Source: a phage
DNA length: 48,914 nucleotides
Reading direction: 5' to 3' (one strand)
Sequence record: PZ445533.1
Every line of letters begins with the position of its first letter. Within the stretch, counting starts at the first letter, position 1. The notes beneath the pieces are model-generated. The model did no database searches, was not told the DNA's origin, and saw only the letters and a program-made list of their open reading frames with translations. This document shows, piece by piece, positions 1 to 48,914 of this stretch. Made by a program: the position numbers and the translations under genes.

Positions 1-1569
1 ATGATCATATGGGAAGATTTGACGGCGGCGCAAAAGCGAGCCATTAAAGAAATCAGTGAGCATTCATTCGAAAAGATGATCAGAATCTGGTTTCAGTTAT
101 TGCAGGGGCAAAAATTCCAGAGCAACTGGCATTTTAGCTTATTGTGCAGTGAGGTAGAGAAGATCATCAATGGAGAGTCGCAGAATGTGATTTTCAACAT
201 TACGCCAGGTAGCGGTAAGACTGAGATTTTCTCGATCCACATGTCACCCTACGCGTCATTGAAAAGTCGGAAGGTGAGAAACCTTAACCTTTCGTTTAGT
301 GATGGACTTGTCCAGCAAAACAGCAACAGGATAAAGGAGATTATCGGTTCTCCTGAGTGGCAAGAGCTATGGCCAGGAAAACTGGCAAAGGCGAGCGCAA
401 AAGATCTCATAGTTACGGATGGCGGCAAGGTTAAATTGCAAGTTAACTCACGTTCTATTGGCGGACAGGTAACAGGTTTGCGTGGCGGCTATATGGACGA
501 TGGTTTTACTGGTATGCTGGTTCTGGACGATCCAGACAAGCCGGATGATATGCTTTCTAAGGTCAAGCGTGAGGCGATCCACATGCGGTTAAAAAACACA
601 GTGCGATCGCGTCGAATGAAAGACACTACGCCGATTGTTATGGTGCAACAGCGACTACACGTTAATGATTCCACCTGGTTTATGCTTAATGGCGGGATGG
701 GTGGTATTGAGTTTAAAGTTGTGAGTATTCCGGCGCTGGTTACGAAAGAATACCGCGAAACGCTTCCTGATTGGTTGAAGCCTGAATTTGATCGTGATGT
801 GTTGTCAAGTAAGCCAGTGATGATAGATGGCGTTGCTCATTATTCATTTTGGCCTGCGAAGGAAAGCGCGGAGGAATTGCTTGCATTGCGCAATGCAGAT
901 CCTTATACGTTCGCCAGTCAGTACCAACAGCAACCCATCGCGCTTGGCGGCAACGTGTTTAAAACAGAGTGGTTCCAGTATTACGGCAGCGGCGAAAAAT
1001 GCGCACTTCCTAAACCGGATCGCTTTGAATACACATTTATTACTGGTGATACCGCGCAGAAGGCCGGAGAGCTTAACGACTATTCAGTTTTTTGTTATTG
1101 GGGGATGTATAAGAATCGCGTTTACTTCATTGATGGCATTCGCGGAAAGTGGGAAGCGCCGGATCTTGAATTAAATTTTATTGCCTTCGTTAATCAGTGC
1201 TGGAAGCGCAATAAGGAGTGTGGCAGCTTGCGACGTATCCACATTGAGGATAAGGCCAGCGGCACGGGTTTGATTCAGGGGGCCAAAAAGAAGATCCCGA
1301 TTGATATAAATCCCGTTCAGCGAAGCAATGACAAGGTAACGCGAGCAATGGACGCCGCGCCAGTAATGAGGGCCGGACGTGTGGCACTGCCAGAAAGTCA
1401 TCCCATGTTACCTGAGATACTGGCAGAGGTTGCAGCGTTCACTTTTGACGATTCTCATCCCCATGATGATATTGTCGATAATATAGTTGATGCTGTTAAC
1501 GTCGAAATGAACTTGGCTGATGATCCGGTAGCAAGGATGAAAAAGCTGGCTGGTCTACGCAATAAATAG
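1..1569 (+). CDS. terL: Terminase large subunit (ATPase + nuclease); start may lie at or just before position 1
   Basis: 522 aa; Walker A NITPGSGKT, Walker B MLVLDDPD, acidic nuclease-domain residues; followed by portal; stop TAG embedded in the 21-bp motif. Confidence 0.85.
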   Translation: MIIWEDLTAAQKRAIKEISEHSFEKMIRIWFQLLQGQKFQSNWHFSLLCSEVEKIINGESQNVIFNITPGSGKTEIFSIHMSPYASLKSRKVRNLNLSFSDGLVQQNSNRIKEIIGSPEWQELWPGKLAKASAKDLIVTDGGKVKLQVNSRSIGGQVTGLRGGYMDDGFTGMLVLDDPDKPDDMLSKVKREAIHMRLKNTVRSRRMKDTTPIVMVQQRLHVNDSTWFMLNGGMGGIEFKVVSIPALVTKEYRETLPDWLKPEFDRDVLSSKPVMIDGVAHYSFWPAKESAEELLALRNADPYTFASQYQQQPIALGGNVFKTEWFQYYGSGEKCALPKPDRFEYTFITGDTAQKAGELNDYSVFCYWGMYKNRVYFIDGIRGKWEAPDLELNFIAFVNQCWKRNKECGSLRRIHIEDKASGTGLIQGAKKKIPIDINPVQRSNDKVTRAMDAAPVMRAGRVALPESHPMLPEILAEVAAFTFDDSHPHDDIVDNIVDAVNVEMNLADDPVARMKKLAGLRNK

Positions 1570-1622: not shown

Positions 1623-1639
1623 ATTATGGAGATTTGACG

Positions 1640-2932
1640 ATGAGCGAAAAAACAAGGCTAGTTAAGGCCGATGGATACAACGAGATTTTCAAGGGTAGTA
1701 AGGGCAATGGGCGTGTAGAGTTGCCTTTCTTTATGCAGGGGTTCGAATACACCACGCACGCTGATTTTTACATTCGTGACGGCCTAGCAAAACGAATCAT
1801 CGACGTTGTTCCAGAAGAAATGGTGACGCCTGGATTTAATATTGATGGCGTGGAAGATGAGGAGAGTTTTAGATCTTTGTGGGATGAGAAGCGACTAAAC
1901 GATAAAATCATTGATGCGCTTTGCTGGTCGCGTCTTTTTGGTGGCGCTGCAATCGTGGCAATCGTTCAGGATGGCAGGTCGTTAAAGTCACCTGTAGCGC
2001 CTGGTGCAATCCTTGAAGATGTTCGCGTTTACGATCGCTTTCAGGTTAGGGTAGAAAAGCGCGAAACTAATCCACGCAAGGTAAGATATGGTGAGCCATT
2101 AATTTACACCATTTCACCTGGTGTCGACTTGCCAGAATACCAGGTTCACTATTCGCGAGTCTGTATTATCGACGGTGAGCGACTACCAAATCAGCGGCGT
2201 CAATCAAATGATGGGTGGGGTGAGTCGATCCTGAATAAGGGACTTGTTGAGGCTATTTGTGATTATAACTACTGCGAAAACTTAGCAACTCAATTGTTGC
2301 GACGTAAGCAACAGGCGGTATGGAAAGTTAAAGGTCTTGCTGATCTTTGTGATGATGATGATGGTGTTAGTGCCGCACGTTTGCGACTTGCTCAAGTTGA
2401 TGATGAGGGTGGCGTAGGCCGTGCGATCGGCATTGATGCGGAAGATGAGGAATATGATGTTTTAAATTCTGATATTTCTGCCGTCGATTCGTTCTTGGAA
2501 AAGAAGATGGATCGCATTGTATCTCTTTCCGGCATCCATGAAATCATCCTCAAAAACAAGAACGTTGGCGGTGTTAGCGCGAGCCAAAACACGGCGCTTG
2601 AAACCTTCTACAAGCTGATCGACCGAAAGCGAAAGGAAGAATACAAACCAATCCTTGAATTTCTGATCCCGTTCCTTATTCAAGAGGAAGAATGGAGCAT
2701 TCAGTTTGCGCCGTTAAGCGTTCCAAGCGAAAAGGACCAGGCCGAAATCTTGAACAAGAACATTGATTCTTTGAGTAAGGCTATTGACGGTCAATTCATG
2801 GATGCAGAAGAGGCGCGCGACACATTGCGAGCCATTGCGCCTAACGTTAAACTAAAAGACGGCAATGACATTAAATTACCTGAGCAAGACGTAGAGCCGG
2901 AGCCAGGAACAACAGAGGGTAGCAATCAATGA
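1640..2932 (+). CDS. Portal protein
   Basis: 430 aa ORF directly after terL, GGAG RBS 9 nt upstream of ATG 1640; position and size typical of portal; stop overlaps next start (ATGA). Confidence 0.6.
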   Translation: MSEKTRLVKADGYNEIFKGSKGNGRVELPFFMQGFEYTTHADFYIRDGLAKRIIDVVPEEMVTPGFNIDGVEDEESFRSLWDEKRLNDKIIDALCWSRLFGGAAIVAIVQDGRSLKSPVAPGAILEDVRVYDRFQVRVEKRETNPRKVRYGEPLIYTISPGVDLPEYQVHYSRVCIIDGERLPNQRRQSNDGWGESILNKGLVEAICDYNYCENLATQLLRRKQQAVWKVKGLADLCDDDDGVSAARLRLAQVDDEGGVGRAIGIDAEDEEYDVLNSDISAVDSFLEKKMDRIVSLSGIHEIILKNKNVGGVSASQNTALETFYKLIDRKRKEEYKPILEFLIPFLIQEEEWSIQFAPLSVPSEKDQAEILNKNIDSLSKAIDGQFMDAEEARDTLRAIAPNVKLKDGNDIKLPEQDVEPEPGTTEGSNQ

Positions 2933-9216: not shown

Positions 9217-9879
9217 ATGCACTTGCCTAATGGTTCTCAAATTTTCATCGGCGTTAATATGGGTGAGCCAATTAGCGCGACTCAAATCAGCAATGCTGAT
9301 AATCCTGTTTTTACAACCGAAAACACTCAAAGCATCAAAAAAGGCGCTTATGTTCTTATTGAAACATCTTCTTGGGGCAAACTTGTTAGTCGAGTGCTTC
9401 GAGTTAAGGAAGTATCAGATAATGCAAGTGTTACTCTTGAGGGTGTTAGCACTAAAGATACAAACGTATTTCCAGAAGGACAGAACACAGCAACTTTCCG
9501 AGAAGTGAAATCTTGGGTAGAGGTTCCTTGCGTACAGGATCTTGCGCAGGACGGCGGCGAGCAACAGTATTACACTTATCAGTGTTTGGCTGATGACCAG
9601 GAGCAGCAGTTGCCGACCTACAAGAGCGCGGTTTATCTTACCTACACTTTCGCTCATGAATATGATAACCCGATTTATCCGATCTTGCGCGAGGCTGAGG
9701 AATCCGGCGACGTAACCGCTTTGCGTATGTACGTGCCGAAAGCTAAAGAGATGCGTTGCTGGGCTGGCGTATTGTCTTTTAATGACATTCCGCAAACAAC
9801 TATGAACGAAATGGAAACTGTTTCCCTTTCTGTATCTCTGAAAGGCCGATTCACGTTCTTACCTTCCGACGTTAAGTAA
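9217..9879 (+). CDS. Major tail protein (putative)
   Basis: 220 aa, AGGAGG RBS, followed by strong terminator and then chaperone G/GT. Confidence 0.55.
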   Translation: MHLPNGSQIFIGVNMGEPISATQISNADNPVFTTENTQSIKKGAYVLIETSSWGKLVSRVLRVKEVSDNASVTLEGVSTKDTNVFPEGQNTATFREVKSWVEVPCVQDLAQDGGEQQYYTYQCLADDQEQQLPTYKSAVYLTYTFAHEYDNPIYPILREAEESGDVTALRMYVPKAKEMRCWAGVLSFNDIPQTTMNEMETVSLSVSLKGRFTFLPSDVK

Positions 9880-9884
9880 AACAA

Positions 9885-9906
9885 GGGGCGTTGCGCCCCT
9901 TTTTTC
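9885..9906 (+). terminator. Rho-independent terminator after major tail gene
   Basis: GGGGCG TTG CGCCCC plus T-run. Confidence 0.65.
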
Positions 9907-9945
9907 ATTCCTGTAAAATCAATCTATCAAATAAATTAATTCCAC

Positions 9946-9964
9946 TTTTAACAAAAAGTGCTAT
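9946..9964 (-). repeat. Isolated copy of 21-bp box (minus orientation) abutting RBS of chaperone G gene
   Basis: TTTTAACAAAAAGTGCTAT directly followed by AAGGAG and ATG 9979. Confidence 0.5.
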
Positions 9965-9978
9965 AAGGAGATCTTAAG

Positions 9979-10296
9979 ATGGCAAAGATGAAACTAACGT
10001 TAGGCCCACTGCCTGATTTTAAGCTGCCTGTTTCTTTCGTGCTTCCAAATGGTGATGAGCAAGTTATTGTTTTTACCGTGCGCCACAAGAAGGCAAGCGA
10101 AATTCACGAACGATACACGGCAGAAAAGCCGATGAGCGACGTAGAAATGATCACCTTCCTTGCTTCCGGTTGGGATCTGGAAGATGAATTTAACGAGGAA
10201 AACGTTGCTAAATTGCTGGATTATTACCCGTCTGCGTCATTATCGCTGACTGGTCATTATATGAAAGCACTTGCGGGGCAGCGGGTAAAAAACTAA
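9979..10296 (+). CDS. Tail assembly chaperone (G-like)
   Basis: 105 aa acidic ORF immediately upstream of tape measure; ends at slippery A-AAA-AAC. Confidence 0.65.
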   Translation: MAKMKLTLGPLPDFKLPVSFVLPNGDEQVIVFTVRHKKASEIHERYTAEKPMSDVEMITFLASGWDLEDEFNEENVAKLLDYYPSASLSLTGHYMKALAGQRVKN

Positions 10297-10613
10297 AGCG
10301 GGCGGTTTACCTGTTTTACCTCAAGCCGCCAACTGACGCACAATTAGAGGCCGTCGGCCTATCCCGTTCAGACTACGAAGGGGAGGAGCCGCCGGAGGTA
10401 ATTTTTGATGAATCAATGTTTCAATCTTGGGATCTGTTTTGCGCTATGCAGACGCAATGGAGATCGACTAGCGGCAGTGTGTATGGGTTCGACTATAACG
10501 TTTTGCCTATGCTTTTTGACATTTACAAGATTGAGGATCGGGAGATGGCGCTAAATGATTTGCGCATCATGGAACAAAAGGCGCTAGAAATGATTCATTC
10601 AAACAAAACATAA
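9979..10613 (+). CDS. Tail assembly chaperone GT-like fusion produced by programmed -1 frameshift at 10287-10293
   Basis: Slippery heptamer A AAA AAC two codons before the G stop; -1 frame is open from 10293 and runs into ORF 10416-10613. Confidence 0.55.
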
Positions 10614-10652
10614 GCGCCGAGAGGCGCTTTTTTAATATCTGGAGGTTTTAAA

Positions 10653-13334
10653 ATGGCTGAAAAATACGCTGGCCTAACGCTAGGCGTTGACGTGTCGCAG
10701 GTCAACAATGCTGTTAAATCATTGCAGCAATTCAAGAAGGCAAACGACGACGCAAAAAAAAGCGTTAATGAATTTGTTGATTCTGAGGTTGTGGCGCGAC
10801 AGCAAGCAAAACAGTTTGCCGAAGAACTGGCGCGCCAGAAAGCAGAATTTAAGAAAATCCAGGAGTCAATTGATCCCACCGCGTCAAAGATGGATAAGCT
10901 GCGAAAGGCAGCGACACAGCTTGATGCGCTATGGAAAAAGGGCATTGTTCCTGATGAGACTTTTTTTGAGCTTGGATCAATTCTTGAGACGCAGCAAAAC
11001 AAGCTGATCGCAACAAAAAAAGCGATGACGGAGGAAGGCCGCGCGGCGCTTGAGGAATCAAAGAACAAAGCGCGTGCAGCGGAAGAGGCTAAAAAATTCG
11101 TCCAGGCTTTGCGTGAGCAGGAAGAAGCAGCAGGAAAAAGCAAGTCTGAATTGCTGGAAATGAAAGCGGCACAGCTTGGAGTTAGCCAGGAGGCAGCACC
11201 TTACATCGCAAGGCTGAAAGAGCAGGAAAAGCAGATCCAGAAACTTGGGATTTCTACAGGCCAATACAAACAAGCAATGGCGCAATTGCCAATGCAGATC
11301 ACAGACGTGGTGACTTCACTTGCTTCTGGTATGCCAGTTTGGTTGGTCGCAGTCCAGCAGGGTGGACAGATCAAGGATTCTTTTGGTGGTGCATCCAATG
11401 CTTTAAAAGCGTTGCTATCTTTCCTGAATCCGGTAAACGTGGCGTTTGGCTTGCTTTCCGGCACGCTGGCAATTGCTGCATATAATGCCTACAAAGCACA
11501 GACAGAGCTTGAGGCAATTAAAAAAACCGTTCAGGAAACAACTGGCTTGAGTGGTGAGTTTGCCGAAAAGATTGCTATAGGAATCCAGGAGCTTTCCGAC
11601 AAGACAGGCGAAAGCGCCGAAGATCTGGCAAAGGCTTACATAACAACGAAAGACGGCGCGAGCGAGGCGATTAAAAAACTGGTTGACGTTGGGATGACTT
11701 ATGATGACGCAAAAAAGAAAGTCAACGAGTACAAGGGCGCGTCTAGCTTTGTCAGCTTGAATAACGAAATTGCAAACCACAAAAACAAAGTCCTTGAGTT
11801 GGGCGAGTCGTGGTATGAAGTTTTGAAAGCTAAGCGTGATTACGCTTCCCCGTCCGGCGGCCTGTTAGGTAAAGAGCTTGGCTATGTTAATCCTATGCTT
11901 AAGTTTGCACTTAACACTTATGAAGACATTGGAAAGGTCGTAAAAGATGCGAATAAGGACATGGCGGAACGAGCGGAGCGAATCGACAAAGAAAATCTGT
12001 CATTAAACAGAGTGCGAGCGGCGCAAGAGGCTTTAAACAAAGCCATTGAGGATCAGAAGGGCGTGGCGCGTTCGGCTGATGAAGAACTGAAAAAGCGCGC
12101 GGCTGAAAACGTGGAGTTTAGGCGCAAAGAGCTTGAGGAAATCAAGAAGCAGGAGCAGAAAAAGAAAGAGGCTAAAGGTGGAATAGTTCGCGGCCCTACT
12201 GAGCAGCTTGATAAAGAGTTGTACGTTTTAAAGGCGCAACTGGAAACTCTTAAAGAGCATCGCACTGTTAACGATGTTATTTCTCGCCAGCGTAAATCTT
12301 TATGGAGCATCGAAAAGCAGATCGAGATCCTGGAGAATGCGCAGAGCAAGCGTAAATTGACCGGAGCGGAACAGGCGCTACTAAACGAGCAAAAGGCCGT
12401 TCTTGAAATGGCAAGACAAAAAGCTGAGCTAGGGGATCAGATTGTTTTGCAGGAGCGCAAAAACAAGCTGGAGCAAGATAGTCTTAAGTTTATCCGTGAA
12501 ACTGAGGCTGCTATTGATGCGATTGGCCTTAAGCAACTTGGCTACACTGAAAAGCAGATCGAGCGTGAGCTAGAGTTACGCAAGCTGCGCACCGACTACG
12601 AGGCGCAAGGCGGAAGCGTTAGCGATGAAGTTTTTCAGCAAATGGAGGCGAAACTTAAGCTGTATTACCAGGCACAAGACGAGGCGCAAGGCAACTGGTT
12701 AGCCGGAGCAAAGAACGCATGGGAGCTATTCGCGGAAGATGCAAACAATGCCTATGGCAATGTTCAGCAGATCGCAAGCGAGGCGTTAAACGGCCTTACA
12801 AACCAATTAGCGAATTTTATCGCTACTGGCAAGGCAAACTTTAAAGACTTCTCGACGGCTATCATCAAAATGATTATCCAGATGATCACGAAAATGGTCG
12901 TCTTTAATGCGTTATCTGGCCTGATTGGTGGTCAAACCTGGACGATGGGGAGCTTGCTTAAGAATATTGGCGGATTTGCTGGCGGTGGATACACTGGAGA
13001 CGGCGGGAAGTATGAGCCAGCCGGAATTGTCCATAAAGGTGAATTTGTCATGACGAAGGAGGCGACGCAGCGTATCGGGGTAGGAAACTTGTACCGCATG
13101 ATGCGAGGCTATGCTAACGGCGGCGTTGTTGGTAGTTCCGGCTATACTGGCGGTGGCGCTGTAACTGGTGGAGCACCTCAATTTAACATCGGCGGGATTG
13201 ATGTTAGCATCACTAACGGAAACGATCCGAAGGGCATCGAAACTGGTGTTAAGATGATCTTTACTGATATGATTAAACGTTCCTGTATGCAGGGCGGCGA
13301 GGTTTACGAATTTGTTATGAGCAAGCGAGGTTGA
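10653..13334 (+). CDS. Tail tape measure protein
   Basis: 893 aa, long charged coiled-coil regions, Gly-rich C-terminal part; canonical position. Confidence 0.85.
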   Translation: MAEKYAGLTLGVDVSQVNNAVKSLQQFKKANDDAKKSVNEFVDSEVVARQQAKQFAEELARQKAEFKKIQESIDPTASKMDKLRKAATQLDALWKKGIVPDETFFELGSILETQQNKLIATKKAMTEEGRAALEESKNKARAAEEAKKFVQALREQEEAAGKSKSELLEMKAAQLGVSQEAAPYIARLKEQEKQIQKLGISTGQYKQAMAQLPMQITDVVTSLASGMPVWLVAVQQGGQIKDSFGGASNALKALLSFLNPVNVAFGLLSGTLAIAAYNAYKAQTELEAIKKTVQETTGLSGEFAEKIAIGIQELSDKTGESAEDLAKAYITTKDGASEAIKKLVDVGMTYDDAKKKVNEYKGASSFVSLNNEIANHKNKVLELGESWYEVLKAKRDYASPSGGLLGKELGYVNPMLKFALNTYEDIGKVVKDANKDMAERAERIDKENLSLNRVRAAQEALNKAIEDQKGVARSADEELKKRAAENVEFRRKELEEIKKQEQKKKEAKGGIVRGPTEQLDKELYVLKAQLETLKEHRTVNDVISRQRKSLWSIEKQIEILENAQSKRKLTGAEQALLNEQKAVLEMARQKAELGDQIVLQERKNKLEQDSLKFIRETEAAIDAIGLKQLGYTEKQIERELELRKLRTDYEAQGGSVSDEVFQQMEAKLKLYYQAQDEAQGNWLAGAKNAWELFAEDANNAYGNVQQIASEALNGLTNQLANFIATGKANFKDFSTAIIKMIIQMITKMVVFNALSGLIGGQTWTMGSLLKNIGGFAGGGYTGDGGKYEPAGIVHKGEFVMTKEATQRIGVGNLYRMMRGYANGGVVGSSGYTGGGAVTGGAPQFNIGGIDVSITNGNDPKGIETGVKMIFTDMIKRSCMQGGEVYEFVMSKRG

Positions 13335-23455: not shown

Positions 23456-23486
23456 AAAAGCCCCGCATATGCGGGGCATTTTTTAG
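23456..23486. terminator. Bidirectional terminator between ssb (+) and fibre-like gene (-)
   Basis: AAAAAG CCCCGCAT ATGCGGGG CATTTTTT. Confidence 0.65.
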
Positions 23487-24232: not shown

Positions 24233-24511
24233 TTAAGCCCATCCTCTAATAGACTGATCTAACTCAACCACGTATCCATTAAAAATTACGGCATCAAACT
24301 TATCATCAATGATTCGCACATTAACGAAATAGCCGTCGTTCTTTCGCGCAATCTCCTCGCCATCGTCAGATCGTGCAATTACTGTATAAGTATTGCCGAT
24401 TACATCGAGCAGGATTGCATCCTGAATGGATTCGTTATCATCCCAATTAATTTTTCCTAAAAAGGCCGAAAACTCGGCCTTGTCTGAAAATTTTAATGTT
24501 AAATCACGCAT
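24233..24511 (-). CDS. Hypothetical protein between fibre genes
   Basis: 92 aa; TAATG overlap with upstream fibre gene. Confidence 0.45.
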   Translation of the reverse strand: MRDLTLKFSDKAEFSAFLGKINWDDNESIQDAILLDVIGNTYTVIARSDDGEEIARKNDGYFVNVRIIDDKFDAVIFNGYVVELDQSIRGWA

Positions 24512-26487: not shown

Positions 26488-26502
26488 TTGTAAAATCCTC
26501 CT

Positions 26503-26522
26503 AAATAGCACTTTTTGCTAAT
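26503..26522 (+). repeat. Isolated copy of 21-bp box upstream of tail fibre gene (opposite orientation)
   Basis: AAATAGCACTTTTTGCTAAT located 10 nt beyond fibre gene RBS. Confidence 0.5.
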
Positions 26523-38431: not shown

Positions 38432-38441
38432 CGTCATTACC

Positions 38442-40867: not shown

Positions 40868-40874
40868 TTACTAT

Positions 40875-40946
40875 CTCCTGAGCGGTTCGTTTCGATGTGT
40901 GTAATGTACCCGATCAGGCGGCCTGATTTTTAACAAAAAGTGCTAT
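40875..40946 (-). promoter_or_regulatory. Motif cassette at head of leftward small-gene operon
   Basis: Minus-strand motif, hairpin ATCAGGCCGCCTGAT, TACATT, CATCGAAACGAACC, RBS AGGAG. Confidence 0.5.
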
Positions 40947-40949
40947 TTG

Positions 40950-41485
40950 ACGGTTAGCACCAGGATTGTGATCGAAATAATCAAAAGTAATCATTCGTAA
41001 TCAAATCACGTCAAAATGATGATTGCCTTTGCAAATTTGATGAGAAAAGTAATCACGTTTAATCATTGGTTGCAGGGGAGATAGTGAAACCCTCCACTCT
41101 TGCCTCACTTTTCCGCCTGGCTGTCAGTGGTTGTTATGTTCCGTTCCCGCCTGTTCTTTTGTTGACCTTCCGCAAAATACGATAACAAAAAATAACAAAC
41201 AATACCTATATAATACATTGAAAAATAAGGATTATTTATTTATATGTATCTATATATTCTCTTTTGTTATCTTGGTTATTGTGGTATTTGGTGGGGGTAT
41301 ATAGTTTTTGTGTATCTGTATGTGTGTATGGGTATGTAGGGGCATATATATCTATATGGCACTTTCCGCGAGAAAACTTCGATAACAGGCAATGATAACA
41401 TTGATTTATAAGGAAAAATAACGCCCATATTGTTATTGTGCCACCATATAAAATTGATAAAACACGCGGGAACAAGAAAAAACAG
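40950..41485. repeat. AT-rich divergent control region B, homologous to region A, with (G)TAATCA iteron-like repeats
   Basis: Five TAATCA copies 40975-41075; shared blocks TTATTTATTTAT, GTATCTGTATGTG, GGGAACAAGAAAAA with region A. Confidence 0.5.
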
Positions 41486-41514
41486 TTGACACATTAAATA
41501 GCATTATTGATAAT
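41486..41514 (+). promoter_or_regulatory. Sigma70-like promoter (TTGACA-17-GATAAT) for rightward operon
   Basis: TTGACA 41486-41491, 17-nt spacer, GATAAT 41509-41514, RBS AGGAGG and ATG 41544 downstream. Confidence 0.6.
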
Positions 41515-41543
41515 GCCGACACCTAACAACCAGGAGGTAGAAA

Positions 41544-42008
41544 ATGAGCGAGCAATCATTCACTGACACGCTGCGCCGTGCAGCTATTATGCTGGCTAAT
41601 GGCGAGGAAGAGACGATCAAGATTCCTGACGCGTATTTGCAGGTCCACATGTTCGGCAAGAAGTCGGCAAGCAATCCGGCGGCCTACATTCGCCAGATCA
41701 TGAGTCGAGTGCCAGAAGTCGCCGAGCGGGGGCGCGTATCCGTTACCCGTGGCGTTTACGGGCCGGAAGATGAAAACTTCGGTAGCACTTTCTACGAGGT
41801 GCGGATTGTTGAAGGCCGTCGCAAGGTTTACAACAAAGAGGCACTGGAAAGGGCAGTGCGCCAGGCTAAGCGCAAGGTTGCAGAGGCGATCATTGATATG
41901 TCACCAAACCTGGCAAACTATGCGCCGGAAGAGTACGAAACATTATCAAAGGCCGTCGCTGACTTTCACGCGATGATCAAAAAAACTTTCCTGGAGGATG
42001 AGCAATGA
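41544..42008 (+). CDS. Hypothetical protein, first gene of rightward operon
   Basis: 154 aa; AGGAGG RBS; canonical sigma70-like promoter about 30 bp upstream. Confidence 0.6.
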   Translation: MSEQSFTDTLRRAAIMLANGEEETIKIPDAYLQVHMFGKKSASNPAAYIRQIMSRVPEVAERGRVSVTRGVYGPEDENFGSTFYEVRIVEGRRKVYNKEALERAVRQAKRKVAEAIIDMSPNLANYAPEEYETLSKAVADFHAMIKKTFLEDEQ

Positions 42009-42277
42009 AAAAGGCATTAATCAGCGTTTTGGCGGCAATGGCATTCCTGACCGGATGCAAAGAAGATGGCGCGCATGTTGGCAATGTGCAGATGGCTAAC
42101 CCTGGTGATGACTACAGCGTAAGGGAGCTATTCACCGCTGACGGTTGCACCGTTTACCGATTCTATGACGATCGCACTGTTTACTTCACCAACTGCAAGG
42201 GCACTACTAGCTGGGAAGTGTCGAAAAGCAATGGCAAAGGCACGAAGACAGAACATATGACCGTCGAGACAAAATAG
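42005..42277 (+). CDS. Lipoprotein (second superinfection-exclusion candidate)
   Basis: 90 aa; signal peptide and lipobox LTGC; ATGA overlap with upstream gene; stop TAG within motif. Confidence 0.55.
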   Translation: MKKALISVLAAMAFLTGCKEDGAHVGNVQMANPGDDYSVRELFTADGCTVYRFYDDRTVYFTNCKGTTSWEVSKSNGKGTKTEHMTVETK

Positions 42278-42335
42278 CACTTTTTGTTAAAACTCAAATG
42301 TGGGGCCAGGTATAATGGCCTCACTTTCAACGAGA
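42272..42335 (+). promoter_or_regulatory. Motif cassette
   Basis: Motif with TAG stop of lipoprotein gene; hairpin GGCC...GGCC with TATAAT in loop, 21 nt after TTGTTA. Confidence 0.5.
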
Positions 42336-42346
42336 GGGGAAACGCG

Positions 42347-42574
42347 ATGGAAAGTTTAATCATCCAGAAGAAAATGAAGTGCGTCAGTGTAGCGCCAGGT
42401 TGCGGCTTTATGTTCACGGTGGGAAATATCTACTCCGCGCAGAAGATGAGAACATCAACCGGATCGTTTTACGTCAATAATAATCAGGGATTCCGCATGT
42501 TCCTGAACGGTCAAAGTGGCAACGAAATTTGCGCTTACGCCGACCTTATCGCAACCTTTGAGGAAGTGAAATAA
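42347..42574 (+). CDS. Hypothetical protein
   Basis: 75 aa from ATG 42347 with GAGGGG RBS downstream of motif cassette. Confidence 0.45.
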   Translation: MESLIIQKKMKCVSVAPGCGFMFTVGNIYSAQKMRTSTGSFYVNNNQGFRMFLNGQSGNEICAYADLIATFEEVK

Positions 42575-42987
42575 TGGATGACTGCATGCCGTTTCCTGGA
42601 TATAGAAATAAAGATGGTTACGGTCAGGTTTGCATAAATGGTGTAGTTGTTGGTGCTCACGGGTTAGCATATTGCAGAGCTAACAACCTTTCACTTAATG
42701 ATATACGTGGAATGGTTGTAAGGCATAGGTGTGATAATCCGCCGTGCTGCAATCCTGATCATTTGGAGATAGGAACGCAAAGGGATAACGTTATTGATTG
42801 CATAAAGCGAGGAAGGTTTAAAAGTAATGCTGGTGTTAATAATCCAAGAGCAAAATTGAATTACGACACAGCAGAAGAGATTCGCAAAGAGTACGCTAGC
42901 GGCGTAGTGTCTATGGGGGCGCTAGCTGAGAAATACATGGTTGGTAAAAGCACAATAAAAAGAGTTATTGACCGGAGCATTTGGTGA
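42574..42987 (+). CDS. HNH homing endonuclease
   Basis: HRCDNPPCCNPDHLEIGTQRDN HNH motif with Cys pairs; free-standing between small genes. Confidence 0.75.
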   Translation: MDDCMPFPGYRNKDGYGQVCINGVVVGAHGLAYCRANNLSLNDIRGMVVRHRCDNPPCCNPDHLEIGTQRDNVIDCIKRGRFKSNAGVNNPRAKLNYDTAEEIRKEYASGVVSMGALAEKYMVGKSTIKRVIDRSIW

Positions 42988-43526
42988 TGAAAATTTATAC
43001 ATTTGAACTATGGGGCAATAAGTACGAATTTACGACAAGCAAGCCTATTGTTGTGTGCGATCTCGACGGCACGCTATCGGACGGATCGCATCGTTTGCAC
43101 TTGCTGCCAACCGAAAACTTGCACCTTACGGAATCGTGGAGCGAATTTAACAGGGCAGCCGCCGCAGATTCACCGATTAAGAGCACGATTGCTGTTATCA
43201 ATGGTTTGTGGGTATCTGGCTTTGCCGTCGTTATCCTTACCGGACGCAGCGACGAAGTGCGCTATGAAACATGTAAATGGCTGAATGAGAACGGCGTGAA
43301 GTTTGACGAAATCATCATGCGTCGCCAGCAGGACAACCGAAAGGATACGGTTATTAAAGAAGAAGCCTTGCGCGCTATTGGATTGGGCAACATTGTTTGC
43401 GCCTTTGACGATTCTCCGAATGTGGTTAAGCACTTCCGAAGCCTGGGGATCACAACCTATCAGGTCACGGAATACGACAAGCCACACGCTCACCTGCAAT
43501 CTCACGGCGTGGAGTGTTTAAAATGA
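42987..43526 (+). CDS. HAD-family phosphatase (nucleotidase or polynucleotide 3'-phosphatase-like)
   Basis: DxDGT motif (VVCDLDGTL) at N-terminus, later hhhhTGR and FDD motifs typical of HAD fold; TGATG overlap with HNH gene. Confidence 0.6.
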   Translation: MKIYTFELWGNKYEFTTSKPIVVCDLDGTLSDGSHRLHLLPTENLHLTESWSEFNRAAAADSPIKSTIAVINGLWVSGFAVVILTGRSDEVRYETCKWLNENGVKFDEIIMRRQQDNRKDTVIKEEALRAIGLGNIVCAFDDSPNVVKHFRSLGITTYQVTEYDKPHAHLQSHGVECLK

Positions 43527-43684
43527 CTTGGTTGCTTTTAATCTTTGTCACAAGTTACAACTCCGCAGCTATTGAGTCGCAGGAGTTCCACGGCGAATCA
43601 AGATGCCAGGAAGCGCGAAAGCAAGTTGTTCTCCACATGTCAGATAGTGGGAAGGATGTAACAGCGTTATGCGTTCGTAAATAG
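43523..43684 (+). CDS. Small protein with N-terminal hydrophobic/signal-like segment (53 aa)
   Basis: Own translation MTWLLLIFVTSYNSAAIESQEF...; ATGA overlap with upstream stop; TAG stop is the TAG of the 21-bp motif. Confidence 0.4.
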   Translation: MTWLLLIFVTSYNSAAIESQEFHGESRCQEARKQVVLHMSDSGKDVTALCVRK

Positions 43685-43775
43685 CACTTTTTGTTAAAGC
43701 ATTCCATCGGGCTTGCTTTATAGTAAGCCCATCAACAACGAAAGAGGAAAGCATCATGTTGTTACAGCAGACGAG
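43679..43775 (+). promoter_or_regulatory. Motif cassette
   Basis: Motif, hairpin GGGCTT...AAGCCC with TATAGT in loop, ATCAACAACGAAAGAGGAAA. Confidence 0.5.
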
Positions 43776-43786
43776 GAGACGAAGAA

Positions 43787-44056
43787 ATGACACGCAAAAT
43801 TGAAATATTCCAGGCCATAGACAGAATCGACATGAGGGATTCACTATTCGCTATTGAGTCCATTGATGGCGAAGACGTCGCCTACAACGTAGAGCTGGAT
43901 GAATACAGCTTCGACTGTGTGCGCAAAAAGTTTGCAGATAAAATTGCTATGCAAGGCCGATGCTTGCATAAAGACTCAAGCATAGAGCCTAGACGAAGCG
44001 ACATGATTAATCCAAAACTTGTTGAGACTATTACTTTTGTGGAGAGCAGAAAATGA
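43787..44056 (+). CDS. Hypothetical protein
   Basis: 89 aa downstream of motif cassette; ATGA overlap with kinase gene. Confidence 0.5.
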   Translation: MTRKIEIFQAIDRIDMRDSLFAIESIDGEDVAYNVELDEYSFDCVRKKFADKIAMQGRCLHKDSSIEPRRSDMINPKLVETITFVESRK

Positions 44057-44643
44057 AAAGAGACATCATTATCCTGAATGGGCCACCTGGAGTGGGAAAG
44101 GACACCATTGCGGCATACCTTACCGGACACCAATACCCAGCAGTTAAGGCATCATTCAAACAGCCAATGTTCGATATTGCGTTCTCCATGCTTGGTGTGT
44201 ACAGATACGATGAATTTATGGACTTGTACAACGACCGGGAACAGAAAGAAAAGCCTCAAGTGATATTGCAGGGCAAATCACCGCGTCAGTTCATGATCTG
44301 GATTAGCGAGGAGGTAATGAAGCCAGCATTTGGGGAACAGTATTTCGGCTGGAGAATGGTTGAGCAGATTCACGAAATGTACCGCGACCTTGCAATTATC
44401 GTAACAGACGGCGGCTTTCCAGAAGAAATCAAGCCACTGATTAAAGCAGGTCACAAAGTGCACATTTGCCGACTGCATCGCGAGGGGTACACGTTCGATG
44501 GCGACTCGCGAAACTATATCGACATGGGCGACTATCATCACCGCCTCAAGCATTACGATTTCACGTTGCACGATGGCGAGCCAGAAAAGACGGTGGAGGA
44601 AATCATCGAAACCGTGCAGTGGCATTTCACAAAAATCAAATAG
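44053..44643 (+). CDS. P-loop nucleotide kinase (dNMP-kinase-like, GKDT motif)
   Basis: N-terminal IILNGPPGVGKDT Walker A resembling phage deoxynucleoside-monophosphate kinases; stop TAG within motif variant. Confidence 0.6.
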   Translation: MKRDIIILNGPPGVGKDTIAAYLTGHQYPAVKASFKQPMFDIAFSMLGVYRYDEFMDLYNDREQKEKPQVILQGKSPRQFMIWISEEVMKPAFGEQYFGWRMVEQIHEMYRDLAIIVTDGGFPEEIKPLIKAGHKVHICRLHREGYTFDGDSRNYIDMGDYHHRLKHYDFTLHDGEPEKTVEEIIETVQWHFTKIK

Positions 44644-44705
44644 CACGAATTGCTAAACGCGGGGCGCAATGCTCCGCTATAATTTACCCCGTTCAGTAAA
44701 CATAG
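44639..44705 (+). promoter_or_regulatory. Motif cassette (variant box AAATAGCACGAATTGCTAAA)
   Basis: Variant box containing kinase stop TAG, GC hairpin, TATAAT 22 nt after TTGCTA. Confidence 0.45.
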
Positions 44706-44714
44706 GAATCAACA

Positions 44715-45116
44715 ATGTTAGAGCTAAGCAATATCCGCACCGGAACAAAATTTCGCGTAACCTGGGCAGACGAAAAATGCGGCCTTCGTCGTGGTGAGAT
44801 TGTAACCGCCCAATCCCGTTACATCGGCAGACTGGAGAACTACAAGCGCCCACGCATTAAATTCGGCTACATCATCACCGATAGCCTGGGATTCGACAAT
44901 TACGTGATCAAGTCCAGCACCGGAATCATCGCAGACCTTAAGCGAATCCGTAATCATCGCGGCTGTCACATAAAGACCATGAAAACACCATTCCAGAACG
45001 CCCGATACGATGCGCGACGTATGCGCCGACTTGCTCGCAACGCCTGTAAGTTCAAGAAGACTGGCGATGATTTTTACAAAACCTACCAGGGGATCGCGCG
45101 CAATGCTGGCAAATAA
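44715..45116 (+). CDS. Hypothetical basic protein
   Basis: 133 aa downstream of motif cassette. Confidence 0.5.
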   Translation: MLELSNIRTGTKFRVTWADEKCGLRRGEIVTAQSRYIGRLENYKRPRIKFGYIITDSLGFDNYVIKSSTGIIADLKRIRNHRGCHIKTMKTPFQNARYDARRMRRLARNACKFKKTGDDFYKTYQGIARNAGK

Positions 45117-45215
45117 CGTCGATTCGACTAATCCAAAGCCGCCATTTGATTTTCATAAGGCGATGGCTGTGATACTATTCGTTCTGTTAATTTTTCACTG
45201 TTTGAGGTTTGGATT

Positions 45216-45467
45216 ATGGTTGTCAATGCACTAAAGCGGCTTATTCGTCCAGAATACAGGATCGTATGTTGCACTGAATGCAAAGTTTACTACCTGCAAC
45301 GTCGTAGCACCTGGCGCGGTCGCTGGGAATATCTGACAGAGGATTCATTCGGCCTGTTCGCTATGGAGTTTGCTCGATACAGTTCGGCGGCAATGTACGC
45401 GAAAACAGCGCACCGATTCCGCAAATCACGACTTCGTTTGCTTGTTGTTAATAAGTGCGATGCATAG
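45216..45467 (+). CDS. Hypothetical protein (CxxC motif)
   Basis: 83 aa, GAGG RBS. Confidence 0.45.
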   Translation: MVVNALKRLIRPEYRIVCCTECKVYYLQRRSTWRGRWEYLTEDSFGLFAMEFARYSSAAMYAKTAHRFRKSRLRLLVVNKCDA

Positions 45468-45475
45468 GATCACGA

Positions 45476-45655
45476 ATGAAAATAGCAATTATCACTTTTA
45501 TTGCCCTTATCGCTGGTTGCTACCTTGCTTATAATTATAGCGGCATTGTTGAGTCAATCGGCGGGTTGATTATCTTCATGGCTGGCGGTTATGCTGGCTA
45601 TTGTGACGGATTCGAAAACGGAAAGCGTTATGTGCTGACCGGAAAGAAAAAGTAA
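45476..45655 (+). CDS. Small membrane protein (two predicted TM segments)
   Basis: 59 aa from ATG 45476 with AGGA RBS; hydrophobic segments IAIITFIALIAGCYLAY and GGLIIFMAGGYAGY. Confidence 0.45.
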   Translation: MKIAIITFIALIAGCYLAYNYSGIVESIGGLIIFMAGGYAGYCDGFENGKRYVLTGKKK

Positions 45656-45699
45656 AACACGCGCCGCCGCAAGGTGGCGTTTTCTATAGGAGAAAGAAA

Positions 45700-45990
45700 A
45701 TGGCAACTATGCGAAAAATGCTTATCAATGGCTTTGAAAGAGAAATTCGCCGTCGAGGCTGGGATGATTCTAAAAATTCACCTTACACTATCAATCGCGG
45801 AGAGTATAAATCAGTTCGACATTTTGCACGATGCCTGGCTGGATGCTACGACCTGGAGCATCCTTTCCCGTTCATGAACGAAACGCTAACCGAAATGATG
45901 GAAGAGGCCGCAACTCAAGATCGACCATTGACGCAACATGATTTTGATGAGTTTGCGCACTGGGAAATCGAATGTGCGCTATATAAATAG
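45700..45990 (+). CDS. Hypothetical protein
   Basis: 96 aa, AGGAGAA RBS; stop TAG within motif. Confidence 0.55.
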   Translation: MATMRKMLINGFEREIRRRGWDDSKNSPYTINRGEYKSVRHFARCLAGCYDLEHPFPFMNETLTEMMEEAATQDRPLTQHDFDEFAHWEIECALYK

Positions 45991-46050
45991 CACTTTTTGT
46001 TAAAACCAGCTTCGGCTGGTTTTGTATTATATGCGCATCGACAACAGAGG
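45985..46050 (+). promoter_or_regulatory. Motif cassette
   Basis: Motif with TAG stop, hairpin CCAGCTTCGGCTGG + T-run, TATTAT, CATCGACAACAGAGGAGG. Confidence 0.5.
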
Positions 46051-46060
46051 AGGCCGGAAC

Positions 46061-46246
46061 ATGGCAACGCTGACAGTTAAAACAAAATTTTCCGTTATGA
46101 AGTTCGAATGTGAGCAATACAATTACAAGAAAGGTGGCAGCTTCGGAACGCTGGTTACATACGACAAAGAAGGTCGACAACTTGAAGTGGTGACAATAGG
46201 TAATGCGCTAGGCGGCGAGAATCCACAATTTCAGTTTGAGGGATAA
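46061..46246 (+). CDS. Hypothetical protein
   Basis: 61 aa from ATG 46061 with AGGAGG RBS downstream of motif cassette. Confidence 0.5.
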   Translation: MATLTVKTKFSVMKFECEQYNYKKGGSFGTLVTYDKEGRQLEVVTIGNALGGENPQFQFEG

Positions 46247-46249
46247 GTG

Positions 46250-46498
46250 ATGAAAGATAAAAGTTTTGTAGGCCATGTTCGCGTTAAGTTAATCAATGTT
46301 GACTATCGTCCAGATCCAGAATCACCTACATTGCGCGAGTGGGCTGGATTCGAAAACGGAAAGGAAATGGTTGTAGAGCTTTATAAAGACGGTGAGATGT
46401 GGGCTATGGCTGGCGTTAACCGTAGCGGCGAATTTGGCGAAGTGAAGGAAACAGATTGGTTTAGTTTGACAAACGAAGAAGCGGAGATTATCGAATGA
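46250..46498 (+). CDS. Hypothetical protein
   Basis: 82 aa; GAGGGATAA RBS; coupled to neighbours. Confidence 0.5.
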   Translation: MKDKSFVGHVRVKLINVDYRPDPESPTLREWAGFENGKEMVVELYKDGEMWAMAGVNRSGEFGEVKETDWFSLTNEEAEIIE

Positions 46499-48312: not shown

Positions 48313-48338
48313 AGCCCGCCTTTATGGCGGGTTTTTTA
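48313..48338 (+). terminator. Rho-independent terminator before terS promoter
   Basis: CCCGCC TTTAT GGCGGG plus TTTTTT. Confidence 0.65.
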
Positions 48339-48359
48339 TTGCCCGTTGTCTGGTATAAT
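48331..48359 (+). promoter_or_regulatory. Extended -10 promoter candidate (TGGTATAAT) upstream of terS
   Basis: TGnTATAAT-type element at 48351-48359 just downstream of terminator hairpin. Confidence 0.4.
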
Positions 48360-48387
48360 CAGGCATCTAACCAAAGGAGGATTAACA

Positions 48388-48914
48388 ATGGCTAAAAACG
48401 TTGAGCCTGCTGTAAAGGCATTAAATTTCAAAGAGTTATACAATAAAACTTATGGCGATATTGTCACGCTAAACAACCGCCACAAGTACACGCCGGAACA
48501 GGTTTTTGACATGGCGATCCGCTATTTCACTTGGGCCGAAGAGAATCACATTCAGGCGGCTGAAACTGCTTCCTTTCAGGGTGACGTGTACGAGAGCAGA
48601 GTTTACAAGCCTCGCGTTTTCACGGTTAACGGATTCAGCTTGTATCTCGGCGTTACTGAGGCGGCTGTAAGCAAGTGGCGTAAAGAGCCTGGATTCTGCG
48701 ATGTGATGGAGTTTGTTGATAAAGTAATTTACGAGCAAAAATTCCAGCTTGCGGCAAATAACATGATTAATGCTGGATTTATCGGTAAAGAGATCGGCGT
48801 AGAGAAGCCAGCAACAGTGAGCGTTGAAGCTAGCGCGGCAGCTAATGCAAGCATTGACGCAGTAACTGCCGATGAGGTGAAAGAGGCTGTTATTGATATT
48901 CTGGAGCAACTTTA
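48388..48914 (+). CDS. terS: Terminase small subunit, 3'-partial (runs off window end)
   Basis: Own translation MAKNVEPAVKALNFKELYNKTYGDIVTL... open to the last base; AAGGAGG RBS; extended -10 promoter upstream; position immediately before terL. Confidence 0.65.
   Translation, partial: MAKNVEPAVKALNFKELYNKTYGDIVTLNNRHKYTPEQVFDMAIRYFTWAEENHIQAAETASFQGDVYESRVYKPRVFTVNGFSLYLGVTEAAVSKWRKEPGFCDVMEFVDKVIYEQKFQLAANNMINAGFIGKEIGVEKPATVSVEASAAANASIDAVTADEVKEAVIDILEQL

What the first reader, a model, noticed from the sequence alone, without database searches (positions are those of the whole stretch)
48388..48914. Window appears to be a complete, circularly closed phage genome cut at the terL start
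The terS-like ORF is open to the last base (…GAG CAA CTT TA). Joining the window end to position 1 (ATGATC…) would create TAATG, that is a terS stop overlapping the terL start codon, the usual coupling of terminase genes. The window also contains every module expected for a T1-like genome of about this size, so it is probably an entire headful-packaged, circularly permuted genome.
Basis: partly seen in the sequence, partly recalled or inferred. Interest (0 to 1): 0.35.

Follow-up and report, generated by a model that had tools for sequence, protein, structure and literature searches.

The report
Complete phage genome opened at terL
The window is one whole, unit-length genome of an ordinary T1-family coliphage (genus Warwickvirus) whose two ends join perfectly, and the break at the large-terminase start codon is a database layout convention, not a real DNA end.

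Summary
An ORF starting at ATG 48388 runs 175 codons and ends in "TA" at the last base. Base 1 completes TAA and begins the terL ATG (TAATG).

The proteins are a P22-gp3-type small terminase and a large terminase, followed by a portal. The joined end+start sequence occurs as one ungapped piece inside 80 deposited phage genomes, at up to 99.4% identity. It also occurs inside 10 of 10 independent ~51 kb contigs that encode the identical TerL.

The window and phage JLBYU19 close each other's record ends. The whole map is collinear with T1, and the window has no terminal or long internal duplication. So the window is a complete circular map of a Warwickvirus (Drexlerviridae, Tempevirinae).

The cut at terL matches the Pharokka/dnaapler re-orientation convention. 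Citizen Phage Library records have the same layout, including a truncated 527-nt terS.

Headful packaging is inferred from homology only: TerL is 65% identical to T1 and 62% to TLS, and TerS resembles P22 gp3.

The real first packaging cut is predicted about 7.3 kb upstream of terS, at 41083|41084 (GGGGAGATA|GTGAAACC). This is homologous to the read-mapped pac cut of phage Chapo and to the record starts of XY3, PHB17 and G29-2.

The finding is ordinary and of low interest.

The parts
48388..48914 (+). terS (small terminase): 175 codons plus TA. The stop codon TAA is completed by window base 1.
   Evidence: frame; PF16677, 43.5 bits; phrog_606, 2e-53; P22 gp3, 3P9A, 1.7e-15; 54% identical to T1 TerS, aligned to the last residue.
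1..1569 (+). terL (large terminase), 522 aa. Its ATG shares its A with the terS stop codon.
   Evidence: Terminase_6C; phrog_38, 3e-107; 65% identical to T1 TerL; 62% identical to TLS TerL, aligned from residue 1; annotated this way in JLBYU19 and OR912983.
48903..48906 (+). GGAG Shine-Dalgarno-like element for terL, 8 nt before the ATG at position 1. It is separated from its start codon by the record break.
   Evidence: Read directly from the sequence. Function is inferred.
48313..48333 (+). Intrinsic-terminator-like hairpin plus T-run just upstream of terS. It ends the early rightward genes.
   Evidence: T1 has an annotated terminator in the same place (8322-8344, before terS at 8396).
48351..48359 (+). 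TGGTATAAT, an extended -10-like element between the terminator and terS. Candidate promoter of the packaging and morphogenesis operon.
   Evidence: Read from the sequence. Not reported by the two-hexamer scan. Unverified.
48375..48380 (+). AGGAGG ribosome-binding site of terS, 7 nt before the ATG at 48388.
   Evidence: Read from the sequence.
1634..2932 (+). Portal gene, the next gene of the packaging module. Relatives annotate the ATG at 1640 as the start.
   Evidence: PF06381, 4e-75.
40868..41543 (.). AT-rich divergent intergenic region (36% GC against 44.8% for the genome). It is syntenic with the region that holds the mapped pac or first-cut sites of T1, TLS and Chapo.
41075..41091 (+). 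Predicted pac cut motif GGGGAGATA|GTGAAACC. The predicted first packaging cut lies between 41083 and 41084, with packaging running rightwards towards terS.
   Evidence: homologous to the Chapo read-end cut GGGGGGATTTA|GTGTTACC (PMC7471380). The records of XY3 (Warwickvirus, with the upstream 60 nt identical to the window), PHB17 and G29-2 open at or within 2 nt of this point; the motif occurs once in the window. Inference; not tested on reads.

Best explanation
The window is one non-redundant unit length (48,914 bp) of the genome of a virulent T1-family siphophage of E. coli (Drexlerviridae, Tempevirinae, Warwickvirus). It is written as a circular map that was opened by software or convention at the first base of terL.

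That opening splits the overlapping terS stop and terL start (TAATG) and separates the terL ribosome-binding site from its ATG. The apparently truncated terS is therefore a layout artefact. On the real molecule terS and terL are adjacent and probably translationally coupled.

In the virion the DNA is most likely linear, terminally redundant and partly circularly permuted. It would be produced by P22/T1-type pac-initiated headful packaging from concatemers.

The first cut is predicted in the divergent intergenic region at 41083|41084, about 7.3 kb upstream of terS. Packaging would then proceed rightwards through the early genes, terS, terL and the structural genes.

Shown here: protein identities, exact closure, collinearity, and the matching layout of sibling records. 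Inferred: translational coupling, the headful mechanism, the pac position and the packaging direction. The confidence given (0.9) is for the core claim (complete closing genome, opened at terL by convention); the headful mechanism is about 0.85 and the exact pac coordinate about 0.5-0.6.
For: Closure:
- The 1,400-nt end+start query matches as a single piece (1289 nt to 1289 nt) in 80 phage records, at up to 99.4% identity.
- The exact TerL protein occurs on 10 independent 50.5-51.8 kb contigs. In each, a 175-aa GP3_package gene ends on the A of the terL ATG.
- The synthetic junction 60-mer is found exactly in 8 of 11 loci, and junction-spanning alignments exist in all 10 contigs.
- Window 1-26592 equals JLBYU19 23067-49897, and window 26593-48914 equals JLBYU19 1-23066, so each record closes the other.
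- The whole circle is collinear with T1.
- There is no terminal repeat and no long internal repeat.

Layout convention:
- OR912983 starts at terL 1..1569 and ends with terS 50453..>50979 (527 nt, marked partial), the same as the window.
- The OR8968xx Citizen Phage Library records are opened at the same point (their first or last base maps to the window's), and that project annotated its genomes with Pharokka.
- Relatives are opened at more than 10 different positions.
- T1-like genomes, including Warwickviruses, 'circularized upon assembly' (PMC9119101).

Packaging:
- TerS is related to P22 gp3.
- TerL is 65% identical to T1 and 62% to TLS.
- The T1 record carries a terminal repeat_region 1-2800.
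- TLS pac and headful packaging were shown by restriction analysis (PMC11447400).
- The Chapo pac cut at 68/69 was mapped by read ends (PMC7471380).
- The cut-site motif and the XY3, PHB17 and G29-2 record starts align with window 41083|41084.
- G29-2 was one of a set of genomes linearised where reads ended abruptly, when such ends could be detected (PMC6563267).
Against: - No reads or assembly graph are available, so closure of this particular isolate is shown only through relatives.
- No terminal redundancy or permutation can be seen in a unit-length sequence.
- The pac motif was defined after looking at the sequences. A generic local alignment of the Chapo cut region with the window's intergenic region is not significant (505 of 2000 shuffles reach the score), and the regular expression is expected 0.78 times per shuffled genome.
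- How the XY3 and PHB17 record starts were chosen could not be found. They may copy one another's convention.
- The provenance of the window, including whether Pharokka or dnaapler was really used, is unknown.
Confidence: 0.9

Rival explanations
1. The window ends are real physical ends of a linear genome that is cut between terS and terL.
For: Only that the record begins and ends there.
Against: - The break falls inside a stop codon and between an RBS and its ATG.
- The same junction is internal and uninterrupted in 80 records and 10 contigs.
- Sibling records with this layout come from a pipeline that re-orients to terL.
- Mapped ends in the family lie 8-9 kb upstream of terS.
Confidence: 0.01
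2. The window is an incomplete genome or a piece of a larger replicon (for example a prophage or a mis-joined contig), and the neat ends are a coincidence.
For: At 48.9 kb the window is at the small end of the genus (48.5-51.9 kb). About 6.3 kb of the window does not align to JLBYU19 by megablast.
Against: - The unaligned stretches are all internal: 25054-25554, 37778-38433, and the mosaic early-gene region 41156-46492. None lies at the junction.
- Both halves are collinear with relatives and with T1 all round the circle.
- Every functional module annotated in JLBYU19 has its counterpart.
- The junction is exact to the base.
Confidence: 0.03
3. The genome is complete and closes on the map, but it is packaged with fixed ends (cos or short direct terminal repeats) and not by headful packaging.
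For: Several records in the family open at one precise nucleotide. That could also reflect fixed ends.
Against: - TerS is of the P22 gp3 type, and TerL is 62-65% identical to the T1 and TLS enzymes, for which pac-initiated headful packaging with terminal redundancy was shown.
- Only about 20% of Chapo reads at the cut share the end, as expected for a first cut in a headful series.
- Assemblies of these phages circularise.
Confidence: 0.05

Closest known systems
Warwickvirus coliphages (tunus, JLBYU19/16/01, swan01, SECphi27, JK16, XY3)
   Same: - 98-99% nucleotide identity over the structural half, and 95-97% over 75-84% of the other half.
- Identical gene order.
- The same TAATG terS/terL overlap.
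- The same intergenic pac-candidate sequence.
   Different: - No identical record exists in the collection searched.
- The window is about 1-3 kb shorter because of differences in small early genes (41156-46492) and tail-fibre segments.
- Most of these records are opened at other positions.
Citizen Phage Library / Pharokka-style records (OR912983 tunus CPL00169_2; OR896819, OR896828, OR896836)
   Same: - OR912983 has exactly the window's layout: base 1 is the terL ATG, and the last 527 nt are a terS annotated as 3'-partial.
- The OR8968xx records start at the same terL base and end at the point homologous to the window's last base.
   Different: The sequences differ by 1-4%. It is not known whether the window came from the same pipeline.
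Escherichia phage T1 (Tunavirus), the family prototype
   Same: - Collinear genome of 48.8 kb.
- TerL 65% and TerS 54% identical.
- A terminator directly before terS.
- A divergent AT-rich intergenic region carrying the GGGG..TAGTGWWACC motif and the 17-nt repeat.
   Different: - Different subfamily, with only 64-72% nucleotide identity in conserved genes.
- T1 terS and terL are separated by 24 nt and do not overlap.
- The T1 record is opened near pac and annotates a 2.8 kb terminal repeat.
Phage TLS (Tlsvirus, same subfamily) and phage Chapo (Tunavirus)
   Same: Pac-initiated headful packaging was shown experimentally, by restriction analysis for TLS and by read ends for Chapo. In both, the first cut lies in the same divergent intergenic region upstream of the early rightward genes.
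   Different: The nucleotide-level pac assignment in TLS rests on a 6-mer resemblance to P22 and lies about 40 nt from the TAGTG motif. There are no experimental data for the window's phage.
Salmonella phage P22 gp3/gp2 pac-headful system
   Same: The small terminase belongs to the same family (PF16677; 3P9A at E=1.7e-15). The expected mechanism is a sequence-specific first cut followed by processive headful cuts.
   Different: In P22, from general knowledge, pac lies inside gene 3 itself. Here the predicted cut is about 7.3 kb upstream of terS. TerL has no sequence-detectable relative in the PDB.

Membership tests
Genus Warwickvirus (Drexlerviridae; Tempevirinae) | High genome-wide nucleotide similarity to recognised members (the ICTV genus criterion is about 70% or more) | tested here: met
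   Window 1-24500: 98-99% identity at 95-100% coverage to JLBYU01/19/16, JK16, tunus and swan01. Window 24501-48914: 95-97% identity at 73-84% coverage. The taxonomy lines of these records read Warwickvirus.
Drexlerviridae (T1-like) genome architecture | Collinear module order with T1: early genes, terS, terL, portal, head, tail, then recombination, replication and lysis | tested here: met
   An ordered series of blastn matches to T1 runs all round the circle. Gene-by-gene correspondence with the annotated JLBYU19 is shown.
P22 gp3-type small terminase (PF16677) | Pfam score above the gathering threshold, and similarity to the solved gp3 structure | tested here: met
   43.5 bits against a cut-off of 29.4. 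3P9A at E=1.7e-15 over residues 34-144.
Large terminase (ATPase plus RNaseH-like nuclease) | C-terminal terminase nuclease domain and an N-terminal Walker A motif | tested here: met
   Terminase_6C 42.5 bits against a cut-off of 22.6. TPGSGKTE at residues 68-75 is conserved with T1 and TLS. phrog_38 at 3e-107.
Complete circular (closing) genome map | The last base is directly followed by the first base, with nothing missing or duplicated | tested here: met
   Tested comparatively only. One ungapped junction piece in 80 records. 10 of 10 contigs. Reciprocal closure with JLBYU19. No terminal overlap.
Complete circular (closing) genome map | Reads or assembly-graph edges of this isolate span the junction | not testable with these tools
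   No reads or assembly graph are available for the window.
pac-type headful packaging (terminally redundant, partly permuted virion DNA) | Terminal redundancy, a submolar pac fragment or read-start pile-up, and imprecise downstream headful cuts | not testable with these tools
   Homology only: T1 repeat_region 1-2800, TLS restriction data, and Chapo read ends.
pac-type headful packaging | The pac cut sequence is conserved with an experimentally mapped relative at the syntenic position | tested here: inconclusive
   The motif GGGGAGATA|GTGAAACC at 41075-41091 aligns with the Chapo cut and with the XY3, PHB17 and G29-2 record starts, and it is unique in the window. However, the pattern was defined post hoc, and the generic alignment test is not significant.
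terL-first re-oriented record (Pharokka --dnaapler / --terminase convention) | The record begins at the first base of terL on the + strand, regardless of neighbouring genes | tested here: met
   Base 1 is the terL ATG. Sibling records have an identical layout. The convention is described in PMC13338908. The actual provenance of the window is not testable.

The most novel reading that the evidence does not exclude
The short motif GGGG-N(2-6)-|G(T/A)G(A/T)(A/T)AC(C) lies in the divergent intergenic region 7-9 kb upstream of terS. It may be a family-wide pac cleavage site of Drexlerviridae, conserved across at least four genera (Tunavirus, Warwickvirus, Changchunvirus, Hanrivervirus), even though the surrounding DNA has diverged beyond alignment. 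The window's phage would then start its packaging series exactly at 41084. As far as the papers I could read show, the site has been mapped only phage by phage and not described as a shared motif.
Probability: 0.45. Interest if true: 0.25.

Novelty: already known. Interest (0 to 1): 0.07.

Why it matters
The value is mainly practical.
- The 'truncated' terS at the window end should be annotated as a complete 175-aa gene that wraps the origin of the record. It is not a pseudogene or a contig edge.
- The window can be treated as a complete genome for taxonomy and comparative work.
- Coordinates in this record say nothing about the physical ends of the virion DNA.
- The comparative prediction of the first packaging cut (41083|41084) gives a precise, cheap test for anyone holding the reads. 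If confirmed, it would allow T1-family records to be opened at a biologically meaningful point.

Nothing here challenges current knowledge of T1-like phages.

Tried and rejected
1. I looked for a terminal overlap left by an assembler (exact repeats of 5-400 nt between the ends) and for long internal duplications. There are none, so the record is trimmed to unit length.
2. I searched for the window itself in the phage collection. There is no 100% record; the best matches are about 99% for the first half and about 97% at 82-84% coverage for the second half.
3. I tried to locate pac by plain nucleotide similarity to the T1 and TLS record starts. Only the 17-21-nt intergenic repeat matched.
4. I ran a Smith-Waterman test of the Chapo and T1 cut regions against the window's intergenic region. 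It was not significant (505 of 2000 shuffles), and the top-scoring hit was a different site, 41292-41308. The pac call therefore rests on synteny plus the record-start coincidences, not on alignment statistics.
5. Within-genus phylogenetic footprinting of 40868-41543 was uninformative, because the region is almost invariant among close relatives.
6. I looked for papers stating how the XY3 and PHB17 ends were determined, and for PhageTerm data on any Warwickvirus. I found none.
7. A sequence search of TerL against the PDB gave no hit.
8. The two-hexamer promoter scan found nothing convincing upstream of terS. Only an extended -10-like TGGTATAAT can be read by eye.
9. I rejected the idea that the TAATG overlap is 'usual' for the family, because T1, TLS and Chapo have spacers of 24, 11 and 38 nt.

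Full report
**1. Observation**

The window's last 527 bases (48388-48914) form an ORF that starts at ATG, preceded by AGGAGG at 48375-48380. The ORF remains open for 175 codons and leaves the dinucleotide TA at the very end. The window begins ATGATC.

Joining end to start gives ...CTT TAA, with the last A also serving as the A of ATG. This is a one-base stop/start overlap (TAATG). A GGAG at 48903-48906 lies 8 nt upstream of that ATG, so the ribosome-binding site of the first gene of the window sits at the window's far end.

There is no direct repeat between the two ends, no long internal duplication and no tRNA gene.

**2. What the genes are**

- The terminal ORF is a small terminase of the P22 gp3 family: Pfam PF16677 at 43.5 bits against a cut-off of 29.4, phrog_606 at 2e-53, and PDB 3P9A at 1.7e-15.
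- Bases 1-1569 encode a large terminase: phrog_38 at 3e-107, the Terminase_6C nuclease domain, and the Walker A motif TPGSGKTE.
- Bases 1634-2932 encode a portal protein (PF06381, 4e-75).
- TerS is 54% identical to T1 TerS, and the alignment reaches the last residue of both proteins. Nothing of terS is therefore missing beyond the window end.
- TerL is 65% identical to T1 TerL and 62% identical to TLS TerL. The TLS alignment starts at residue 1 of both (MIIWEDLT against MLIWEDLT), so base 1 is the genuine start codon.

**3. Is the junction real?**

I joined the last 700 and first 700 bases and searched annotated phage genomes.
- 94 records matched, and in 80 of them one place covers at least 80% of the query.
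- In the best records the match is one ungapped piece (1289 nt against 1289 nt) at up to 99.4% identity. It lies in the interior of the record and is annotated 'terminase small subunit | terminase large subunit'.

A look-up of the exact TerL protein gave further support.
- It returned 10 independent contigs of 50.5-51.8 kb, from Logan, ENA metagenomes and NCBI.
- In every one, a 175-aa GP3_package gene ends on the first base of terL (9474..10001 and 10001..11569).
- The synthetic 60-mer made from the window's last 30 and first 30 bases occurs exactly in 8 of the 11 loci tested, and all 10 contigs give a single alignment spanning the junction.

**4. Is the genome complete?**

- Against JLBYU19 (OK272489, 49,897 bp, opened elsewhere), window 1-26592 aligns to 23067-49897 and window 26593-48914 aligns to 1-23066. 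Each record closes the other's ends to the base.
- The stretches that do not align by megablast are all internal: 25054-25554 and 37778-38433, plus the mosaic early-gene region 41156-46492. This accounts for the window being 1-3 kb shorter than most relatives.
- Ordered matches to T1 run all the way round the circle.
- The taxonomy of the close relatives is Drexlerviridae; Tempevirinae; Warwickvirus. 'T1-like' is therefore correct at the family level, but the phage is not a Tunavirus.

**5. Why the break is where it is**

Relatives are opened at more than ten different points, and window base 1 maps to these record positions:

| Record | Position matching window base 1 |
|---|---|
| JLBYU01 | 23805 |
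| JK16 | 25086 |
| XY3 | 9483 |
| G3B1 | 7805 |
| tunzivis | 18223 |
| orkinos | 1802 |
| SECphi27 | 20846 |
| EC125/EC195 | 528 |
| Several others | 1 |

The records opened at 1 are OR912983 (tunus isolate CPL00169_2) and the OR8968xx Citizen Phage Library phages.
- OR912983 begins with terL 1..1569 and ends with a terS annotated 50453..>50979. That is 527 nt and 3'-partial, identical to the window's layout.
- That project annotated its genomes with Pharokka (PMC10893117).

The cut at the terL ATG is therefore a bioinformatic convention applied to a contig treated as circular. The split terS is its by-product.

T1-like genomes, including two Warwickviruses, are reported to circularise on assembly (PMC9119101). 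The family is described as terminally redundant and circularly permuted (PMC4070988).

**6. Mechanism**

*Expression.* A terminator-like hairpin (48313-48333) and an extended -10-like TGGTATAAT (48351-48359, read by eye) precede terS. T1 has an annotated terminator in the same place. TerS and terL overlap by one base with an internal GGAG, the classical arrangement for translational coupling. Coupling is inferred and not tested. The overlap is conserved in Warwickvirus, but it is not a family trait, because T1, TLS and Chapo have spacers of 24, 11 and 38 nt.

*Packaging.* The terminase is of the type used by P22, T1 and TLS.
- The T1 record annotates a 2.8 kb terminal repeat.
- TLS shows a submolar pac fragment and a series of 3-4 headfuls (PMC11447400).
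- Chapo shows a pac cut at 68/69, defined by identical ends in about 20% of the reads at that site (PMC7471380).

By homology, the window's phage most likely packages by a pac-initiated headful mechanism. This would give linear, terminally redundant, partly permuted virion DNA that assembles as a circle. That remains an inference, because a unit-length sequence cannot show it.

**7. Where the real end probably is**

In T1, TLS and Chapo the mapped first cut lies not in terS but 8.4-9.4 kb upstream of it. It sits in the AT-rich divergent intergenic region between the leftward and rightward early genes. The syntenic region of the window is 40868-41543, with 36% GC.

The cut and record-start sequences compare as follows:

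| Phage | Genus | Sequence at the cut or record start | Basis |
|---|---|---|---|
| Chapo | Tunavirus | GAGAGGGGGGATTTA\|GTGTTACCC | Read ends |
| T1 | Tunavirus | GGGGGGATCTAGTGTTACC (positions 59-76) | Same sequence as at the Chapo cut |
| XY3 | Warwickvirus | ...GGGGAGATA\|GTGAAACC... | Record start; upstream 60 nt identical to the window |
| PHB17 | Changchunvirus | GAGGGGAATC\|GTGAAACC | Record start |
| G29-2 | Hanrivervirus | GGAGGGGAT\|AGAGAAAC | Record start; that study linearised genomes where reads ended abruptly, when such ends could be detected |
| Window | Warwickvirus | GCAGGGGAGATA\|GTGAAACCC (41072-41092) | Predicted |

The motif occurs once in the window, once in T1 and once in JLBYU19, each time at the syntenic spot. 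I therefore predict the first packaging cut between 41083 and 41084, which is 7,304 nt upstream of the terS ATG. Packaging would proceed rightwards.

Caveats:
- The pattern was defined after seeing the sequences, and it is expected 0.78 times per shuffled genome.
- A generic local-alignment test was not significant.
- Within-genus conservation is too high to be informative.
- I could not find how the XY3 and PHB17 starts were chosen.

My confidence in the exact coordinate is about 0.5-0.6.

**8. Verdict**

The window is a complete unit-length genome of a Warwickvirus, presented as a circular map opened at terL by convention. It is not identical to any record in the collection searched; the best matches are about 99% over the structural half and about 97% at 82-84% coverage over the other half. 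In kind it is entirely ordinary.

Rival readings are each unlikely: real ends at the junction, an incomplete or embedded fragment, and fixed-end packaging.

The only mildly new element is the cross-genus coincidence of the pac cut motif, which raw reads could test at once.

Noticed in passing
window 1566, 6193, 9948, 20726, 26505, 28067, 30556, 31627, 34872, 37034, 37708, 39625, 40930, 42274, 43681, 45987 (17-nt sites): The motif TTARCAAAAARTGCTAT occurs 16 times (0.01 expected), mostly between genes. It is also present in T1 and in the TLS intergenic region. It corresponds to the '18 intergenic 21-base repeats upstream of start codons' reported for TLS (PMC11447400). Its function is unknown; it may be a regulatory or promoter-associated element.
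   Followed up: partly
window 41194-41324 and 20824-20963: The TATATA-rich block of the pac-candidate intergenic region resembles (70% over 140 nt) a second AT-rich block in the other large divergent intergenic region, upstream of the recE-like exonuclease gene at 21170. These are possible replication-origin or unwinding elements. T1 and TLS have similar TATA-rich blocks next to their pac regions.
   Followed up: no
window 40975-41070: Short GTAATCA / TAATCA-type repeats (for example AAGTAATCATTCGT and AAGTAATCACGTTTAATCATTGGT) lie just upstream of the predicted cut. T1, Chapo and TLS have different short iterated repeats (TGTTGATGTGATTG..., GATTTGATTTGATTAGATTTG) at the same relative position. 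These are candidate TerS recognition repeats.
   Followed up: partly
window 24081-24203 and 25876-26016 (minus-strand ORFs 23483-24220 and 24511-26511): Two pairs of 60-78-nt direct repeats, each offset by exactly 63 nt (21 codons), lie inside the leftward tail-fibre genes. These are in-frame tandem repeat units in receptor-binding proteins. The same genes are among the segments that differ from relatives (25054-25554 is unaligned to JLBYU19).
   Followed up: no
window 41156-46492: The early rightward gene block is mosaic. About 4.8 kb of the 5.3 kb interval (41156-42986 and 43515-46492) does not align to JLBYU19 by megablast. Other relatives cover only 73-84% of the window's second half. This explains the small genome size of 48.9 kb against 50-51.9 kb. 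A rough whole-genome similarity to the nearest record is about 90%, below the 95% species line, so this may be a separate species of Warwickvirus. That figure was not computed properly (for example with VIRIDIC).
   Followed up: partly
window 1634-1642: The mechanical ORF for the portal starts at TTG 1634. Relatives annotate the ATG at 1640 (a 430-aa product), which is probably the true start.
   Followed up: no
database hits to window 1-48914: About 17-20 records labelled 'Campylobacter phage' (MG0656xx, host C. jejuni, 47-50 kb, unannotated) match this coliphage family at 67-90% identity. These are probably Drexlerviridae coliphages mislabelled or co-isolated in that study.
   Followed up: no
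window 48351-48359: TGGTATAAT (an extended -10 consensus) lies between the terminator and the terS ribosome-binding site. The two-hexamer promoter scan missed it. It is a candidate promoter for the late packaging and morphogenesis operon.
   Followed up: no
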